Shown in pieces: positions 7,854 to 48,700 of a stretch of DNA of 64,000 nt. The notes beneath the pieces were generated by a model. It made no database searches. It was not told where the DNA came from and saw only the letters and a program-made list of their open reading frames with translations. Origin of the DNA: Patescibacteria group bacterium (GTDB taxonomy: Bacteria > Patescibacteriota > JABMPQ01 > JAHIRA01); NCBI GenBank assembly GCA_018818205.1, contig JAHISJ010000023.1:173428-237427 (forward strand), written 5' to 3'. Position numbers and translations under genes: made by a program. Position 1 is the stretch's first letter. The number at the start of each line of letters is the position of its first letter.

Positions 7854-7927
7854 TCGGGACTCGTCTAACGGTAGGACGCAAGATTCTGGCTCTTGTAATC
7901 GGGGTTCGATTCCCTGGTCCCGAACCA
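7854..7927 (+). tRNA. tRNA-Gln (anticodon CUG)
   Basis: Cloverleaf: acceptor tcgggac / gtcccga with U1:A72, a D-arm with GG, anticodon stem caaga / tcttg with loop ttCTGgc, T-arm cgggg-ttcgatt-ccctg, discriminator A, and an encoded CCA. Confidence 0.8.
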
Positions 7928-19066: not shown

Positions 19067-19290
19067 GGGGCCCCCGAATAATTCCGATTGTTTGGGAAGG
19101 TGGAACACTATGGAAGTCGGAGCGAATCCCGAAGGTTTTACGTAGGGGTTCAGCTAGACTGGAATAGTAAGAATTGGGGCCCCCGAAAAGTTCCTACTTT
19201 TTGGGGAAGAGGAGGAACAATATGTAAGCTGGAGTGGGTTCCGAAGGCTTTGCGAAGGGACACACGTAAGCTGGAATATTGTTCCGACGT
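19067..19290 (+). repeat. Two tandem, degenerate ~110-bp direct repeats (plus an upstream partial copy from ~18990) abutting tRNA-Ser
   Basis: Copy A 19067-19176 and copy B 19177-19290 both begin GGGGCCCCCGAA and are ~70% identical. Both contain a tRNA T-arm-like block (GGAGCGAATCCCGAAGG / GGAGTGGGTTCCGAAGG) and end in GCTGGAATA. Confidence 0.6.
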
Positions 19291-43888: not shown

Positions 43889-44962
43889 GTGCGATACAAA
43901 AAAATTGTTATAAAAATTGGCACAAGCGTCATAACAGATGAAAATGGTTATCTTGATTTACCACGAATCAAGAATATTGTTGAGCAAATAGCACAGATTA
44001 GAAAAGAGGGAGTTGATGTAATTGTCGTCCTTTCTGGAGCGGTAACCGCTGGTAAAACATTATTTCAAGAGGCAAAGCCAGTCACGTCACCAAAAGAAAA
44101 GCAGCTATACGCATCAGTTGGTCAGATATCACTCATGAACTATTTTTCTAAGCAATTTTTTGACAAAAAAATAACCATTGGTCAAATTTTGGCAACTAAG
44201 GAAGATTTTAGGGATAGAAAACACTACTTAAACATGAGAAGTTGTTTTGAAGCACTTTTGGGAAAAGAGGTAATTCCTGTCGTCAACGAAAACGATGCAA
44301 TTTCATTCCACGGAGCCACATTTACGGATAATGATGAGCTTGCGGGGCTTATTGCCTCTATGCTTAACTGTGACGCATTGATTGTACTAACCGATGTAGA
44401 TGGTGTGTGCGACAAGCATCCAAAGCATAAAGATGCTAAATGTCTCACTAAAGTCGACCCCAAAGAAACAAACGTTTTTGACTTTATTACGAGTGAAAAA
44501 TCAAGTTGTGGCACCGGAGGCATGTTTTCGAAGTGTAAAATTGCAACGCGACTTTCCGCAATAGGCATAGGCACACACATTGTAAATGGCACAAAAGAAA
44601 ATATTATTTCAAGCGTCATGGAAGGGAAGCTGGTTGGCACTGAATTTGTTGCACAAAAAAATATTTCGAGTATGAAGCGGTGGCTTGCCAATTCTCAAGG
44701 ACATGAAGTTGGTTCAGTATTTATTAACGAAGGCGCAAAAGAAAAACTCCTCACTAATGGATCGGTAAGCTTATTGCCTGTTGGTATAATCAGTGTTGAG
44801 GGTGAATTTGAAAAAGGTGATATCATTGCAATTAAGACCGAGTACAACCAGGTTCTTGGTAGAGGTGTTGCGCAATACAACAGTTCAAAAGCAGGAGCAC
44901 TTATGGGTAAAAAAGGTGAAAAACCGTTAGTGCGCTGCGACTATTTATTCATAATAGAATGA
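43889..44962 (+). CDS. proB: Glutamate 5-kinase with C-terminal PUA domain
   Basis: N-terminal IVIKIGTSVITDENG, amino-acid kinase fold motifs, and a C-terminal PUA segment (GSVFINEGAKEKL...GDIIAI). GTG start. Confidence 0.85.
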   Translation: MRYKKIVIKIGTSVITDENGYLDLPRIKNIVEQIAQIRKEGVDVIVVLSGAVTAGKTLFQEAKPVTSPKEKQLYASVGQISLMNYFSKQFFDKKITIGQILATKEDFRDRKHYLNMRSCFEALLGKEVIPVVNENDAISFHGATFTDNDELAGLIASMLNCDALIVLTDVDGVCDKHPKHKDAKCLTKVDPKETNVFDFITSEKSSCGTGGMFSKCKIATRLSAIGIGTHIVNGTKENIISSVMEGKLVGTEFVAQKNISSMKRWLANSQGHEVGSVFINEGAKEKLLTNGSVSLLPVGIISVEGEFEKGDIIAIKTEYNQVLGRGVAQYNSSKAGALMGKKGEKPLVRCDYLFIIE

Positions 44963-47040
44963 GAAAAATAACAGTAGGAATTATTGGTGCAGGTAATATG
45001 GGAACCGCTTTTTATAATGGCATCAAAAAATCATATCCAAGCATGTCACTGTATGTTTTTGACACCAACCAAAAAAAGCTCGACCATTTCTTAAAAAAAG
45101 AACAAACAAGCTCAATTCCATCGTTGATAGAAAAATCAAGTTATGTCATTATTGCGGTCAAGCCTCAACTATTTGACGAAGTCGCAAAGGCGATTCCAAA
45201 AGATACGCTAGATACTGTATTTATCTCAATAATGGCTGGAGTCTCGCTCAAGACACTAAAAAAATCACTCAAAACAAGTAAGGTTGTTAGATCTATGCCT
45301 AATTTAGCCATTAGTATTCAAGAAGGCTTAACTGGGTGGCTAGCAACAAAAAGCGTTTCTAGCAAAGAAAAGAAAGAAGTCTCTGAAATTCTTTCTTCAC
45401 TCGGTACAGAGATTGAGGTAAAAGACGAGGAAGGCATTGATAAAATTACTGCACTCTCTGGATCAGGTCCTGCATATTTCTTCCACCTTACCGAGTGTAT
45501 TCAAAAGCAGGCTGAGAAATGGGGATTTACTACAAAAGAGGCACAAAAAATGGCCGTTCAAACGTTATCCGGAAGCGCTCACATTCTTAAAGAAAGCAAA
45601 GAAACTCCCGGAGTGTGGAAGGACCGAGTTACTTCAAAGGGTGGTACGACTGAAGCTGCTCTTAAGTATCTCATAAAAAAGAAGTGGGATACTATTTTTA
45701 AAGATGCGCTAAAAGAAGCGTATAATCACTCAAAAAAACTTAAAGACGCAAGATTTTGTAGAGACGCAGAATTGTGTAGAGACGCAAGATTTTGCGTCTC
45801 TACACAATTTTCAAAGGTAAAACAAGCAAGCAAAGCCCTTGCTACACTAAGTAATGATGCAAAAAATACTCTCCTAAGCGAACTTGCTTCTTATGTTGTC
45901 GAAAAAGAAAAGAGTATCCTTGATGCAAATAAAAAAGATTTGAGCAAGATGGACAAAGATGATCCTAGTTATGACAGACTCCTTCTTACCAGTGAACGAA
46001 TAGCTGGTATTGCTGGAGATATCAAAAACGTTATAGCTCTTGATTCACCGCTTCATCTCACGCTTGATTCTTACACCCATCCAAACGGTCTCAAGATAAA
46101 CAAAATTTCAGTCCCTTTCGGAGTAATCGGTGTGATTTATGAAGCACGGCCAAACGTAACCCTCGATGTTTTTGCACTTTGTTTTAAATCCGGGAACGCC
46201 TGCATTCTTAAAGGAGGCGAGGAAGCACATGAATCAAACAAAGCAATAACCGCGCTGATTCATGATATTTTGCTAAAAAATGATATCAATACCGACTCTA
46301 TCCTTCTTCTTCCTCCCGACAAGGAATCTGTTAAACCTTTGCTGGAAGCTGAAGGAGAAGTCGACCTCATTATTCCGCGAGGAGGGCAAGGCTTAATTCA
46401 ATTCGTAAGAGAAAACGCAAAAGTACCTGTTATTGAAACAGGTGCAGGAATAGTACATACCTATTTTGACAAAGAAGGTGACGTAGAAAAGGGAAGAAAT
46501 ATTATTGAAAATGCTAAATGCAGAAGGCCAAGCGTTTGTAATGCATTAGACACACTTATAATTCATACAGACAGACTGGATGACCTATACTTTCTCATTG
46601 AGCCGCTCGAAGACCACTCCGTTGAAATATATGCTGATGAACAGTCATTTGAAGTGCTCGCTAAAAAATACAATCCTTCGTTACTAAAAAAAACAAAACC
46701 AGAAGATTTTGGCACAGAGTTTCTCTCCCTTAAAATGTCTATAAAGACAGTGCATTCTATAGATGAAGCACTAACACATATTGAAACGCATACTTCAAAG
46801 CATAGTGAAGCGATCATCACTGAAAACAAAGAAACGTCACAACTATTTCTCAACTCAGTTGATGCGGCAGCAGTCTACTCAAACGCCTCCACAGCATTCA
46901 CCGATGGCGCTCAGTTTGGTTTGGGCGCTGAAATTGGTATTAGCACCCAGAAGCTGCACGCGCGTGGTCCTATGGGGCTTAGAGAACTTACCACGTACAA
47001 ATGGGTAATTGAGGGTAATGGGCAGATCAGACCGGCATAA
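44959..47040 (+). CDS. Fused pyrroline-5-carboxylate reductase (ProC, residues ~1-255) and gamma-glutamyl-phosphate reductase (ProA, residues ~285-693)
   Basis: N-terminal ProC Rossmann GIIGAGNMGTAF... and dimerisation domain (GSGPAYFF...TSKGGTTEAAL). The C-terminal part has ProA/ALDH motifs (GNACILKGGEEAHESN, catalytic Cys in RRPSVCNALDTLI). The two parts are joined without a stop by the linker DARFCRDAELCRDARFCVSTQFS. Confidence 0.8.
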   Translation: MRKITVGIIGAGNMGTAFYNGIKKSYPSMSLYVFDTNQKKLDHFLKKEQTSSIPSLIEKSSYVIIAVKPQLFDEVAKAIPKDTLDTVFISIMAGVSLKTLKKSLKTSKVVRSMPNLAISIQEGLTGWLATKSVSSKEKKEVSEILSSLGTEIEVKDEEGIDKITALSGSGPAYFFHLTECIQKQAEKWGFTTKEAQKMAVQTLSGSAHILKESKETPGVWKDRVTSKGGTTEAALKYLIKKKWDTIFKDALKEAYNHSKKLKDARFCRDAELCRDARFCVSTQFSKVKQASKALATLSNDAKNTLLSELASYVVEKEKSILDANKKDLSKMDKDDPSYDRLLLTSERIAGIAGDIKNVIALDSPLHLTLDSYTHPNGLKINKISVPFGVIGVIYEARPNVTLDVFALCFKSGNACILKGGEEAHESNKAITALIHDILLKNDINTDSILLLPPDKESVKPLLEAEGEVDLIIPRGGQGLIQFVRENAKVPVIETGAGIVHTYFDKEGDVEKGRNIIENAKCRRPSVCNALDTLIIHTDRLDDLYFLIEPLEDHSVEIYADEQSFEVLAKKYNPSLLKKTKPEDFGTEFLSLKMSIKTVHSIDEALTHIETHTSKHSEAIITENKETSQLFLNSVDAAAVYSNASTAFTDGAQFGLGAEIGISTQKLHARGPMGLRELTTYKWVIEGNGQIRPA
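45770..45809. repeat. Perfect 18-bp inverted repeat (hairpin) with adjacent direct repeats inside the proC-proA linker
   Basis: aattgtgtagagacgcaa-gatt-ttgcgtctctacacaatt. The unit agacgcaagattttg also occurs at 45745-45759 and 45779-45793. Confidence 0.75.
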
Positions 47041-47101
47041 AAAGCCTCATCTGACAGTATAACCAATTCACTCTTAACATTTTTTTTGATATCATAAATC
47101 T

Positions 47102-48076
47102 ATGAACCCAGAACACCCCTCCTTCATTCCACTCCAAGAACAAGAAACTTCTTCTAACCTAGAAAAGTGGCTCTCTTCTGAACTCCCCAAGCAATACGAA
47201 GAAAAAGCCAAAGCGCTAAACGAACTGGGTCTTTTGGAAGTTCTTCCTGAGTGCGGAGAGATTGGCATTGTTGGCATTGATGGTAAAGAGTATCCGTTTC
47301 CATCAGAAGAACAGATCAAAGAAGAGATGCTTAAAAACAGAGAAGTCTTTGAAACAAAGATGAGACAAGGCTTCACTGAGCTTGAGATCACTCCATTTGG
47401 CCTGCCGCTTGAGAGACTCATGCACACTGCCAGACAAAGTATTTTTAAACACCACAAAGAAGGAAAGCTCTTTGGCACAAAGAAGAATCAAGATGATGAG
47501 TCGGAATCATTAGAACCCTTTGAGATTAATGAATACGAACCACTCTTTGTCTGGGAAGACCTAAAAGACGCAGACACACAAGGAACACTCATCTACTACC
47601 CTAAGAAGTTCTCAAAGAATCACCAAGGACTAACCAAACAAGAACTTCTTGACGCTTCGAAAGATTCTCCTTTCTCAGGTTTCACCGTCTATCTCAGAGA
47701 AAAAGACATCAACATCCCGGGAGAAGGACACGGTCAAACCCAAGAAGGCAGAACACAACTTGAAGCAGGGAAATCTTTAAAAGAATACTTTACCTTACTT
47801 CAAACTCAAGCAGAATATCAACACGAATCAGGTCAAACCCCTGAAGACTGGCTCACTCTTTTTTCAACCCACCTCAAAAAAACCAATCAAGTCATTGATG
47901 ACTATCAGTGGAATGGAAGGTATAGCTATCTTTTCGGGTCATACTATCCCGTTTCCGACGACATGCCGCGCGCGAGCTGGATTCGCGATGCTGGGCAGGC
48001 TGGCTTGGGCGGGTACGGTCCCGGGGACCTTTCTTTGGGTGCGGGGGTTCGCTCTGTGGTGAGGATAGGGACTTAG
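47102..48076 (+). CDS. Hypothetical protein (324 aa) with GC-rich 3' end
   Basis: A long ORF with higher GC and C-ending codons than its neighbours. The last ~40 codons (47950-48076) are ~65% GC, encoding ...PRASWIRDAGQAGLGGYGPGDLSLGAGVRSVVRIGT. Confidence 0.4.
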   Translation: MNPEHPSFIPLQEQETSSNLEKWLSSELPKQYEEKAKALNELGLLEVLPECGEIGIVGIDGKEYPFPSEEQIKEEMLKNREVFETKMRQGFTELEITPFGLPLERLMHTARQSIFKHHKEGKLFGTKKNQDDESESLEPFEINEYEPLFVWEDLKDADTQGTLIYYPKKFSKNHQGLTKQELLDASKDSPFSGFTVYLREKDINIPGEGHGQTQEGRTQLEAGKSLKEYFTLLQTQAEYQHESGQTPEDWLTLFSTHLKKTNQVIDDYQWNGRYSYLFGSYYPVSDDMPRASWIRDAGQAGLGGYGPGDLSLGAGVRSVVRIGT

Positions 48077-48232
48077 GACTTGAGTTTTGCTTTTTCTTTG
48101 ATTTATTACTTCATTTTTCCGGCTTGCGAGTCACAACTTTCTCATTTGATTTATCTCTCTTGTTTGCGTTTGTCCTCTATTTCACTTAAAATATAAATTG
48201 ATTCACACTACTTATTAACTAATAAAATCCAT

Positions 48233-48700
48233 ATGAACGTAGAAATTGGAATCGAAGAATCAGACAGAGTCATTATTGTTGAAGGTCTTGCCAAATTGCA
48301 AGGCGACACCTACCTACTTAGCATGAAAGCTCAAAATTATCATTGGAATGTAAAAGGACCTCTTTTTAGTTCGCTCACACACCTTTTCATGGAACATCAC
48401 AATGAACTTACTGAAGGAATTGAGAATATCGCCCTAAGGGTTAGAATGCTTGGGCATGTTGCTCCAGGAACGCTCACTGAGTACAAAAGATTAAGCTCAC
48501 TTGCTGAAGGTGATTCTGCTCAAGACGCTGAATCAATGATTAAAGAGCTCATAGAAAACCATGAATCAATTTTGCAAGATGTGCGCCCATTTATAAAATT
48601 GGTTGAAAAAACTAACGATTATGCTACCGTAGACCTGCTCGTTAGGCACCTGACTGTGCACGCAGAAATGGCATGGGAGCTAAGAAGCATCATTGAATAG
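48233..48700 (+). CDS. dps: Dps-family DNA-binding ferritin-like protein
   Basis: NYHWNVKGPLFSSLHLFMEHHNELTEGIENIALRVRMLG contains the Dps ferroxidase-site residues (HW, H...E). 155 aa. Confidence 0.8.
   Translation: MNVEIGIEESDRVIIVEGLAKLQGDTYLLSMKAQNYHWNVKGPLFSSLTHLFMEHHNELTEGIENIALRVRMLGHVAPGTLTEYKRLSSLAEGDSAQDAESMIKELIENHESILQDVRPFIKLVEKTNDYATVDLLVRHLTVHAEMAWELRSIIE

What the first reader, a model, noticed from the sequence alone, without database searches (positions are those of the whole stretch)
47940..48076. Approximately 130-bp GC-rich patch (~65% GC) closing the 3' end of an orphan ORF in an otherwise AT-rich region
From about 47950 the sequence switches abruptly to gccgcgcgcgagctggattcgcgatgctgggcaggctggcttgggcgggtacggtcccggggacc...gggtgcgggggttcgctctgtggtgagg and then reverts to AT-rich intergenic DNA. 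It is currently read as the C-terminal 40 codons (Gly/Ala/Arg-rich) of ORF 47102-48076. The composition jump is more typical of a structured RNA, a captured foreign fragment or a recombination scar. Blocks such as GCGGGGGTTCGCTC resemble, but do not match, a tRNA/tmRNA T-arm.
Basis: seen in the sequence. Interest (0 to 1): 0.5.

Follow-up and report, generated by a model that had tools for sequence, protein, structure and literature searches.

The report
DGR hypervariable region in Patescibacteria gene
The GC-rich patch is real coding sequence: it is the hypervariable tip of a protein that related bacteria demonstrably rewrite with a diversity-generating retroelement, a known mechanism, although the template and reverse transcriptase for this copy were not found.

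Summary
Window 47940-48076 is 63-67% GC with only 10-12% A, and it is the only 120-bp stretch at or above 60% GC in the 64-kb window.

The patch matches no Rfam family or tRNA and folds no better than shuffles. The ORF is not an orphan: it has 67 close homologues and 734 representatives at 50% identity. All named hits are Patescibacteria, and five or six paralogues sit in the same genome.

The patch is the variable region (VR, about 47948-48064) of a target gene of a diversity-generating retroelement (DGR).
- Near-identical homologues differ almost only in this stretch.
- In 10 related loci, a template repeat (TR) next to an Avd gene and a reverse transcriptase (RT) matches 17 VRs. Of 295 mismatches, 277 (94%) fall at TR adenines, mostly A>G.
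- The window VR aligns codon-for-codon with 10 such TRs. It keeps 35 of 40 scaffold bases and carries G13/A6/C3/T3 at the 25 TR-adenine columns.
- Its composition (A9 G42) matches VRs that have a local TR.
- The predicted structure resembles the C-type-lectin/FGE fold of the DGR variable proteins TvpA, Mtd and TaqVP.

The cognate TR and RT are absent from the 81 kb I could read. Whether this copy is still being rewritten is therefore unresolved. It is a new member of a known kind.

The parts
47102..48076 (+). Protein-coding gene (324 aa) of a Patescibacteria family that serves as a DGR target. It has no Pfam or NCBIfam match, no predicted membrane segment, and a C-terminal C-type-lectin/FGE-like fold.
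47948..48064 (+). Predicted DGR variable region (VR), residues 283-321 (PVSDDMPRASWIRDAGQAGLGGYGPGDLSLGAGVRSVVR). This is the GC-rich, adenine-poor patch.
   Evidence: 47950-48049 aligns without gaps, codon for codon, to 10 template repeats from related loci. It is identical at 35 of 40 strict scaffold columns. At the 25 columns that are A in at least 70% of TRs it carries G13/A6/C3/T3, and all those columns are codon positions 1 or 2. Its composition, A9 G42 C26 T23, lies inside the range of the 17 TR-matched VRs, A 3-18 and G 27-46. The boundaries are inferred from where TR/VR homology starts and ends in relatives.
48050..48064 (+). Conserved 3' end of the TR/VR homology block (CGCTCTGTGGTGAGG). 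It lies where the initiation-of-mutagenic-homing end of a VR would be expected.
   Evidence: In 8 TR/VR pairs the homology continues 12-16 nt past the variable core, through CGYTCCGCGGTGAGG, and then diverges. The window differs from that consensus at 2 of 15 bases. The function is inferred, not tested.

Best explanation
The patch is the variable region (VR) at the 3' end of a diversity-generating-retroelement (DGR) target gene.

Mechanism, shown in relatives and inferred for this copy. A reverse transcriptase, working with the accessory protein Avd, copies an RNA of a non-coding template repeat (TR). It misincorporates opposite template adenines. The resulting cDNA replaces the VR. Adenines of the TR sit at codon positions 1 and 2, mostly in AAY Asn codons. 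In the VR they become any base, mostly G and then T. All other positions, the adenine-free and GC-rich scaffold codons, are copied faithfully. The result is a short adenine-poor, G-rich stretch. It encodes a fixed C-type-lectin-like scaffold with about 20 randomised surface residues.

Shown here: the family is a DGR target in many relatives, and the window copy has the VR anatomy and composition.

Inferred: this particular copy was written by such a cassette located elsewhere in the genome. No TR, RT or Avd lies in the 81 kb around it. I put the chance that it is still being rewritten at about one in two.
For: (1) Variation confined to this stretch. In three 90%-identity clusters of homologues, 20, 17 and 22 of 40 VR columns vary. 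Upstream, only 17 of 281, 3 of 276 and 5 of 275 columns vary.
(2) A full cassette in a relative. L013 holds TR 253-361, Avd 371-715 (Pfam bAvd, 43.9 bits; NCBIfam DGR Avd, E 6e-17, below that model's cutoff), RT 693-1712 (RVT_1, E 1.6e-15, with IGNLTSQ and YGDD motifs) and a family member whose VR is at 5335-5227. All 15 TR/VR mismatches are at TR adenines, as are all 12 against the VR of L011.
(3) Breadth. Of 36 GTDB-genome loci with a family member, 11 carry this RT and/or Avd within 10 kb. There are 17 TR/VR pairs in 10 loci. Of 295 mismatches, 277 (94%) fall at TR adenines: A>G 163, A>T 92, A>C 22.
(4) The window VR aligns in register to 10 TRs. It matches 35 of 40 scaffold columns and carries G13/A6/C3/T3 at the TR-adenine columns.
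(5) Composition separates serviced from unserviced copies. TR-matched VRs have A 3-18% and G 27-46%. Unmatched paralogues in the same locus (L028) have A 29-39%. The window has A 9% and G 42%.
(6) Among same-genome paralogues, differences at codon positions 1 and 2 rise from 0.16 and 0.13 in the body to 0.49 and 0.42 in the tail. Position 3 stays at 0.37 versus 0.42.
(7) The fold matches that of known DGR variable proteins.
(8) The literature describes a DGR clade restricted to Patescibacteria whose targets lack recognisable domains (PMC8144416).
Against: No cognate TR, RT or Avd was found for this copy. None lies in the window. None lies in the flanks reaching about 56 kb to the left and 24.6 kb to the right, where the contig ends. 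None lies near the paralogues on L001 and L004. A search for a degenerate 'VR base or A' pattern found nothing in GTDB genomes, JGI metagenomes or IMG/VR. The first two did not return the window's own sequence either, so this genome is simply not held there. The top 120 RT homologues include none attributable to this MAG. The two assemblies that contain the gene carry the same VR, so no variation of this copy has been seen. The same-genome paralogues differ at synonymous scaffold positions too. They therefore cannot all be serviced by one TR.
Confidence: 0.85

Rival explanations
1. Relic VR. The stretch was written by a DGR in an ancestor or an earlier state of this genome. The cassette has since been lost or no longer recognises this copy, so the patch is now an ordinary, slowly decaying coding tail. 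This rival is nested inside the best explanation and differs only on present activity.
For: No TR, RT or Avd lies in 81 kb around the gene or near four paralogues. Two assemblies show the same VR. The other paralogues in this genome look partly decayed: A is 17-28% and their scaffold match to the TR consensus is 16-37 of 49. Unserviced paralogues exist beside serviced ones in L028.
Against: The window copy has the best scaffold match of the six paralogues, 39 of 49. Its adenine content is as low as in VRs with a local TR, 9% against 3-18%. In a genome with 38% GC and a coding strand with 36% A, such a patch should drift back over time. Most of the genome could not be searched, and DGR cassettes are known to break assemblies (L010 is such a chimera). 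Remote targets are an acknowledged blind spot of DGR surveys (PMC8144416).
Confidence: 0.35
2. An ordinary fast-evolving C-terminal tail under diversifying selection, with no retroelement ever involved. On this view the composition is a by-product of amino-acid preference for Gly, Ala and Arg.
For: Nonsynonymous differences are about three times higher in the tail than in the body among paralogues, which selection alone could produce.
Against: Selection does not explain three things. Relatives have a non-coding repeat of this stretch next to an RT and Avd. 94% of the differences fall at adenines of that repeat. The window's departures from the TR consensus sit at exactly those columns, with the same G-biased spectrum.
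Confidence: 0.04
3. A structured RNA (tRNA-, tmRNA- or riboswitch-like) embedded in or overlapping the end of the ORF.
Against: No Rfam match overlaps the patch at E up to 10. ARAGORN finds only two tRNAs, far away. The minimum free energy is no better than that of dinucleotide shuffles on either strand, z = 0.19 and 0.10. The stretch is conserved as protein scaffold, not as base pairs.
Confidence: 0.01
4. A horizontally acquired fragment from a GC-rich donor, or an assembly chimera fused onto the gene's 3' end.
For: An abrupt composition change, with boundaries about 130 bp apart.
Against: The tail is homologous, in register and in frame, across hundreds of family members, and it always lies at the C-terminus. 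Paralogues in the same genome have it. An independent assembly gives the identical sequence.
Confidence: 0.02

Closest known systems
Patescibacteria (CPR) DGRs: 'DGR clade 2' of Roux et al. 2021 (PMC8144416). First surveyed by Paul et al. 2017, Nat Microbiol 2:17045, cited from reference lists and not read here.
   Same: The host phylum is the same. The RT and Avd found beside family members belong to a large Patescibacteria RT group, with 4364 homologues at E<=1e-10. The targets have no recognisable Pfam or transmembrane domain, as the paper states for CPR targets. The VR lies at the C-terminus.
   Different: This copy has no cassette within 56 kb on the left or 24.6 kb on the right. It would be a remote target or a relic, a class that the paper says its method could not detect. 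I could not check whether this protein family is among that paper's target clusters.
Bordetella phage BPP-1 DGR (Mtd target, Brt RT, Avd, TR/VR), the prototype.
   Different: This system is cellular, not phage-borne. The protein has no tail-fibre architecture. No downstream hairpin is conserved after the VR in these loci. Multiple paralogous targets occur per genome. The substitution spectrum is strongly G-biased (A>G 59% of adenine changes).
FGE-sulfatase-type DGR variable proteins: Treponema denticola TvpA (2y3c) and Thermus aquaticus TaqVP (5vf4).
   Different: Sequence identity is only 11-12%. No FGE-sulfatase Pfam match was found. Foldseek found nothing significant in the PDB. This is therefore a divergent, unclassified variant of the fold, with an unrelated N-terminal domain.

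Membership tests
DGR variable region / DGR target gene | A cognate template repeat in the same genome that differs from the VR only, or almost only, at TR adenines | tested here: inconclusive
   None was found in the window, its flanks (81 kb in all) or the paralogue loci. None was found in three public collections, but the two prokaryotic ones (GTDB genomes, JGI metagenomes) do not hold this genome at all.
DGR variable region / DGR target gene | A DGR-type reverse transcriptase (IGxxxSQ motif) with the Avd accessory gene in the same genome | tested here: inconclusive
   Absent from the 81 kb searched by tblastn. No RT attributable to this MAG appears among the top 120 RT homologues. Present next to family members in 11 of 36 related genome loci and in L013.
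DGR variable region / DGR target gene | Homologous family members are demonstrable DGR targets, with TR/VR pairs showing adenine-specific mismatches | tested here: met
   17 TR/VR pairs in 10 loci. 277 of 295 mismatches fall at TR adenines. L013 gives 15 of 15 and L011 gives 12 of 12.
DGR variable region / DGR target gene | The VR lies at the 3' end of the ORF, and the variable sites fall on codon positions 1 and 2 of AAY-type template codons | tested here: met
   The VR at 47948-48064 ends 12 nt before the stop codon. All 25 TR-adenine columns are codon positions 1 or 2, and the window carries G13/A6/C3/T3 there.
DGR variable region / DGR target gene | The VR is displayed on a C-type-lectin (including FGE-type) fold | tested here: met
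DGR variable region / DGR target gene | Population-level variation confined to the VR of otherwise identical genes | tested here: inconclusive
   Met for three homologue clusters. Not seen for the window gene itself: its 90% cluster has a single member, and the two assemblies are identical. No reads were available.
Structured non-coding RNA (tRNA, tmRNA or an Rfam family) | A covariance-model or tRNA-scanner match, or folding energy beyond that expected from composition | tested here: not met
   No Rfam hit overlaps the patch. ARAGORN is negative there. z = 0.19 and 0.10.

The most novel reading that the evidence does not exclude
This gene may be a remote target, serviced in trans by a DGR cassette tens of kilobases away or on another replicon. 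It would be one of six paralogues in a genome of roughly 1 Mb, of which only a subset (this copy, and perhaps P0005) is currently diversified. The paralogues are repeatedly found next to a conserved, unannotated protein of about 1030-1060 aa. Together these would form a small 'receptor repertoire' system in an episymbiotic bacterium. The hypervariable soluble C-lectin proteins would work with the large partner protein.
Probability: 0.3. Interest if true: 0.55.

Novelty: new member of a known kind. Interest (0 to 1): 0.35.

Why it matters
The finding turns an odd composition patch in a 'hypothetical protein' into a specific annotation with a testable mechanism.

It also gives a practical rule. 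In this family, an adenine-poor (3-18% A), G-rich stretch of about 110 nt at the gene's end marks copies matched by a template repeat. Unserviced paralogues have 29-39% A. That rule can flag remote or orphan DGR targets. Cassette-centred surveys say they miss these (PMC8144416).

The biology itself is already known: adenine-directed mutagenic retrohoming, common in Patescibacteria. The value therefore lies in annotation and in defining a large unannotated target family (734 representatives at 50% identity) together with its conserved large neighbour protein. It does not lie in a new principle.

Tried and rejected
- **Structured RNA.** I ran Rfam at a permissive threshold, ARAGORN, and folding of both strands against shuffles. 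All were negative, so I rejected structured RNA.
- **A second copy in the window.** I used word-7 blastn and then an ungapped 'match or A' scan. Neither found anything above background.
- **RT near the paralogues.** I expected an RT between the paralogues on L001 or beside P0002 and P0005. There is none.
- **Degenerate TR pattern.** I built a 45-nt pattern from the window VR, allowing each base or A and fixing four scaffold codons. It found nothing in GTDB genomes, JGI metagenomes, IMG/VR or the fetched loci, apart from the VR itself in L052. The first two scans did not return the window itself, so those negatives say nothing about this genome.
- **RT homologue list.** I searched with the L013 RT hoping to spot this MAG's RT by name. 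It is not in the top 120 of 4364 hits. One candidate without a 'MAG:' prefix, P0149, belongs to another assembly and has no matching TR.
- **Contig extension.** I extended the contig in both directions. There is no cassette up to the contig end.
- **Downstream hairpin.** I looked for a conserved hairpin after the VR, as in phage BPP-1. None is conserved.

Full report
**1. The observation**

Window 47940-48076 departs sharply from its surroundings.
- GC is 0.658 in 47960-48079, against 0.30-0.45 on either side.
- For 47940-48076 the bases are A 12.4%, C 24.8%, G 38.7%, T 24.1%. The first 838 nt of the same ORF have A 35.7%, C 23.3%, G 18.7%, T 22.3%.
- Across all 120-bp windows of the 64-kb window, mean GC is 0.382 with sd 0.055. 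The maximum, 0.667, lies here, and 47905-48093 is the only stretch reaching 0.60.

On the coding strand the change is a loss of A and a gain of G. The patch forms the last 40-45 codons of ORF 47102-48076. An independent assembly (Logan, run SRR6514274, locus L052) is identical over 4253 nt including the patch. The patch is therefore not an assembly artefact.

**2. What it is not**

- Rfam at E up to 10 gives six chance-level hits in 47000-48600, and none overlaps the patch.
- ARAGORN finds only tRNA-Gln at 7854 and tRNA-Ser at 19290.
- The minimum free energy of 47940-48090 equals that of dinucleotide shuffles on both strands, z = 0.19 and 0.10.

The structured-RNA reading is rejected.

**3. 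The ORF is not an orphan, and the tail is coding**

The product is identical to NCBI 'hypothetical protein KKH43_04915 [Patescibacteria group bacterium]', on a 318,406-bp contig. It has 67 homologues at E<=0.001 in the word-indexed search. An exhaustive search of the 50%-identity library finds 734 representatives, 567 of them at E<=1e-10. Most of these matches run to about query residue 320 and to the C-terminal end of the subject.

Five further paralogues belong to the same MAG. P0003 and P0004 are on the same contig, and P0002, P0005 and P0044 are on another. There is no Pfam or NCBIfam match and no hydrophobic segment.

In a 32-sequence alignment the tail has near-constant length and a conserved scaffold: G-S-Y-x-P, W-x-R, R-Q-A-x-L, P, G-x-R-S-x-V-R. 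The residues between the scaffold positions vary freely.

**4. Variation is confined to this stretch**

Among the five full-length paralogues of this genome:

| Region | Codon position 1 | Codon position 2 | Codon position 3 |
|---|---|---|---|
| Gene body | 0.164 | 0.127 | 0.372 |
| Last 50 codons | 0.487 | 0.423 | 0.415 |

These are differences per codon position.

The pattern is more telling inside 90%-identity clusters of homologues from different samples:

| Cluster alignment | Variable columns in the 40 tail columns | Variable columns upstream |
|---|---|---|
| A2 | 20 of 40 | 17 of 281 |
| A3 | 17 of 40 | 3 of 276 |
| A4 | 22 of 40 | 5 of 275 |

One member, P0071, carries Asn at every variable position and then a different C-terminus.

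**5. The template repeat and the cassette**

At the DNA level the P0071 contig (L010) equals the normal gene (L011) up to the tail. In the tail, all 12 differences inside the shared block are at adenines of L010. After GGTTTTCGTTCCG the two sequences diverge completely.

An exact search for that adenine-rich version in JGI metagenomes returned L013. L013 holds:
- the repeat at 253-361;
- a 114-aa gene on the opposite strand at 371-715, which matches Pfam bAvd (43.9 bits, above the cutoff) and NCBIfam 'DGR protein Avd' (E 5.7e-17, below that model's cutoff);
- a 339-aa reverse transcriptase at 693-1712 (RVT_1, E 1.6e-15), with IGNLTSQ and YGDD motifs;
- a 1059-aa protein of unknown function;
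- a family member on the minus strand whose tail lies at 5335-5227.

Repeat versus tail gives 15 mismatches in 109 nt, all at adenines of the repeat. Against the L011 tail it gives 12 of 12. L010 is thus an assembly chimera that crossed from the variable region (VR) into the template repeat (TR); its last 96 nt encode the Avd C-terminus. This is a complete diversity-generating retroelement (DGR).

**6. Breadth**

A scan of one genome per GTDB species returned 36 loci with a family member.
- Nearly all are MAGs named as Patescibacteria lineages (Magasanikbacteria, Azambacteria, Moranbacteria, Berkelbacteria, Buchananbacteria, Nealsonbacteria). A few are labelled only 'bacterium', Gammaproteobacteria or Flavobacterium.
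- RT and/or Avd of the L013 type lie within 10 kb in 11 of the 36 loci.
- An ungapped 'match or A' scan found 17 TR/VR pairs in 10 loci, counting L013.
- Over 100-nt cores there are 295 mismatches, and 277 (94%) fall at TR adenines: A>G 163, A>T 92, A>C 22.
- TR-matched VRs contain 3-18% A and 27-46% G. Their TRs contain 18-32% A.
- In L028, two paralogues match the local TR and have 6-9% A. Three neighbouring paralogues do not match it and have 29-39% A.

It marks the copies that are matched by a template.

**7. The window copy against those templates**

47950-48049 aligns without gaps, codon for codon, to the 10 TRs.
- At the 40 columns where at least 8 of 10 TRs share the same non-A base, the window is identical at 35.
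- At the 25 columns that are A in at least 70% of TRs, the window has G 13, A 6, C 3, T 3. All 25 columns are codon positions 1 or 2.
- This is the same G-biased spectrum measured in the real TR/VR pairs.
- The window core is A 9, G 42, C 26, T 23, inside the range of TR-matched VRs.

In relatives, TR/VR homology runs 12-16 nt beyond the core, through CGYTCCGCGGTGAGG, and then stops. The window has CGCTCTGTGGTGAGG at 48050-48064. I therefore place the VR at about 47948-48064, residues 283-321.

**8. Fold**

An AlphaFold2 model built on the 32-sequence alignment has mean pLDDT 92 and pTM 0.90. Foldseek against the PDB found nothing significant.

**9. What could not be shown**

The window corresponds to contig positions 245,714-309,713. 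I found no RT, Avd or matching repeat in any of the following:
- the window itself;
- the 8.7 kb to the contig end, or the 8.0 kb to the left;
- the paralogue loci L001 and L004.

The nearest cassette is therefore more than about 56 kb to the left, or beyond the contig end 24.6 kb to the right.

The degenerate TR pattern found nothing in GTDB genomes, JGI metagenomes or IMG/VR. The first two did not return the window's own sequence, so this genome is not in them. The RT homologue list did not reveal an RT from this MAG, and the one candidate I followed belongs to another assembly. No variant of this copy's VR has been seen.

The six paralogues differ at synonymous scaffold positions. Their match to the TR consensus falls from 39 of 49 (window) and 37 (P0005) to 33, 29, 27 and 16. 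At most a subset can be serviced by one TR. The window copy is the most VR-like of the six.

**10. Mechanism**

The general DGR mechanism below is established knowledge from the Bordetella phage BPP-1 system, recalled from memory and not tested here. The RT-Avd complex reverse-transcribes TR RNA and misincorporates opposite adenines. The cDNA then replaces the VR, directed by the shared 3' end.

- Shown here for relatives: the TR, Avd and RT, the adenine-specific differences, and VR-limited population variation.
- Shown for the window copy: homology, register, scaffold identity, substitution pattern, composition and fold.
- Inferred: that this copy was written in this way by a cassette elsewhere in the genome. 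I put the chance that it is still being rewritten at about one in two.

The GC richness has two sources. First, the scaffold codons of the TRs avoid adenine and are GC-rich; for example, 51 of the 71 non-A positions in the L013 TR core are G or C. Second, adenines are mostly replaced by G.

**11. Comparison with what is known, and novelty**

Roux et al. 2021 describe a DGR clade restricted to Patescibacteria. They state that its targets usually lack recognisable domains, predict novel C-lectin variants in CPR, and say their method cannot detect remote targets (PMC8144416). A 2024 survey again finds that Patescibacteria DGR RTs cluster together (PMC11661182).

The finding is a new member of a known kind. 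The mildly unusual points are:
- the distance from any cassette;
- the expansion to six paralogues, with only some looking serviced;
- the recurrent neighbouring protein of about 1030-1060 aa with no annotation.

Noticed in passing
L013 1770-4949; L004 11125-14208; L007 13067-16186; L002 1752-3890; also L016, L020, L028, L037, L046, L047: A protein of about 1030-1060 aa with no Pfam or NCBIfam match lies next to members of this DGR-target family in many genomes. It is 47-58% identical between lineages. In L013, L016 and L037 it sits between the RT and a target gene. It may be a functional partner of the variable protein.
   Followed up: partly
window 44959-47040, with a repeat at 45744-45794: A single 693-aa ORF fuses pyrroline-5-carboxylate reductase (ProC) to a ProA-like aldehyde dehydrogenase, and a ProB-like ORF lies just upstream. 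The linker holds an 18-bp tandem repeat with 2.8 copies, encoding DARFCRDAELCRDARFC.
   Followed up: partly
L010 (JGI Ga0103680_10093380), 1-1668: This is an assembly chimera. The target gene body is joined through the VR/TR repeat to the Avd-side flank of the template repeat. The result is a false protein (P0071) with Asn at every variable site. DGR repeats evidently break or mis-join metagenome contigs.
   Followed up: yes
L028 9093-15863: Six paralogues of the family are clustered beside one DGR cassette. Only two match the TR and are adenine-poor (6-9% A). Three others have 29-39% A and no TR match. Serviced and unserviced copies therefore coexist in one locus.
   Followed up: partly
L022, L037, L048 (MAGs labelled Gammaproteobacteria); L038 (labelled Flavobacterium): Contigs carrying this otherwise Patescibacteria-only family, and in L037 its DGR cassette, sit in MAGs assigned to unrelated phyla. 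The likely cause is mis-binning.
   Followed up: no
L007 10001-17117: Three 303-aa paralogues lie within 7 kb, separated by an AbiEii-domain gene and the large unannotated protein. All three VRs have 8-9% A and share a scaffold, but no TR lies in the 21 kb fetched.
   Followed up: partly
window 47448 (start of L052): The Logan assembly of SRR6514274 breaks inside the conserved body of the target gene, not at the VR. The likely cause is the near-identical paralogues.
   Followed up: no
window 48233-48700: A Dps/ferritin-like gene (Pfam Ferritin, E 9e-23) lies immediately downstream of the target gene, followed by a mechanosensitive-channel gene. The neighbourhood is ordinary housekeeping genes with no mobile-element genes nearby.
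   Followed up: no
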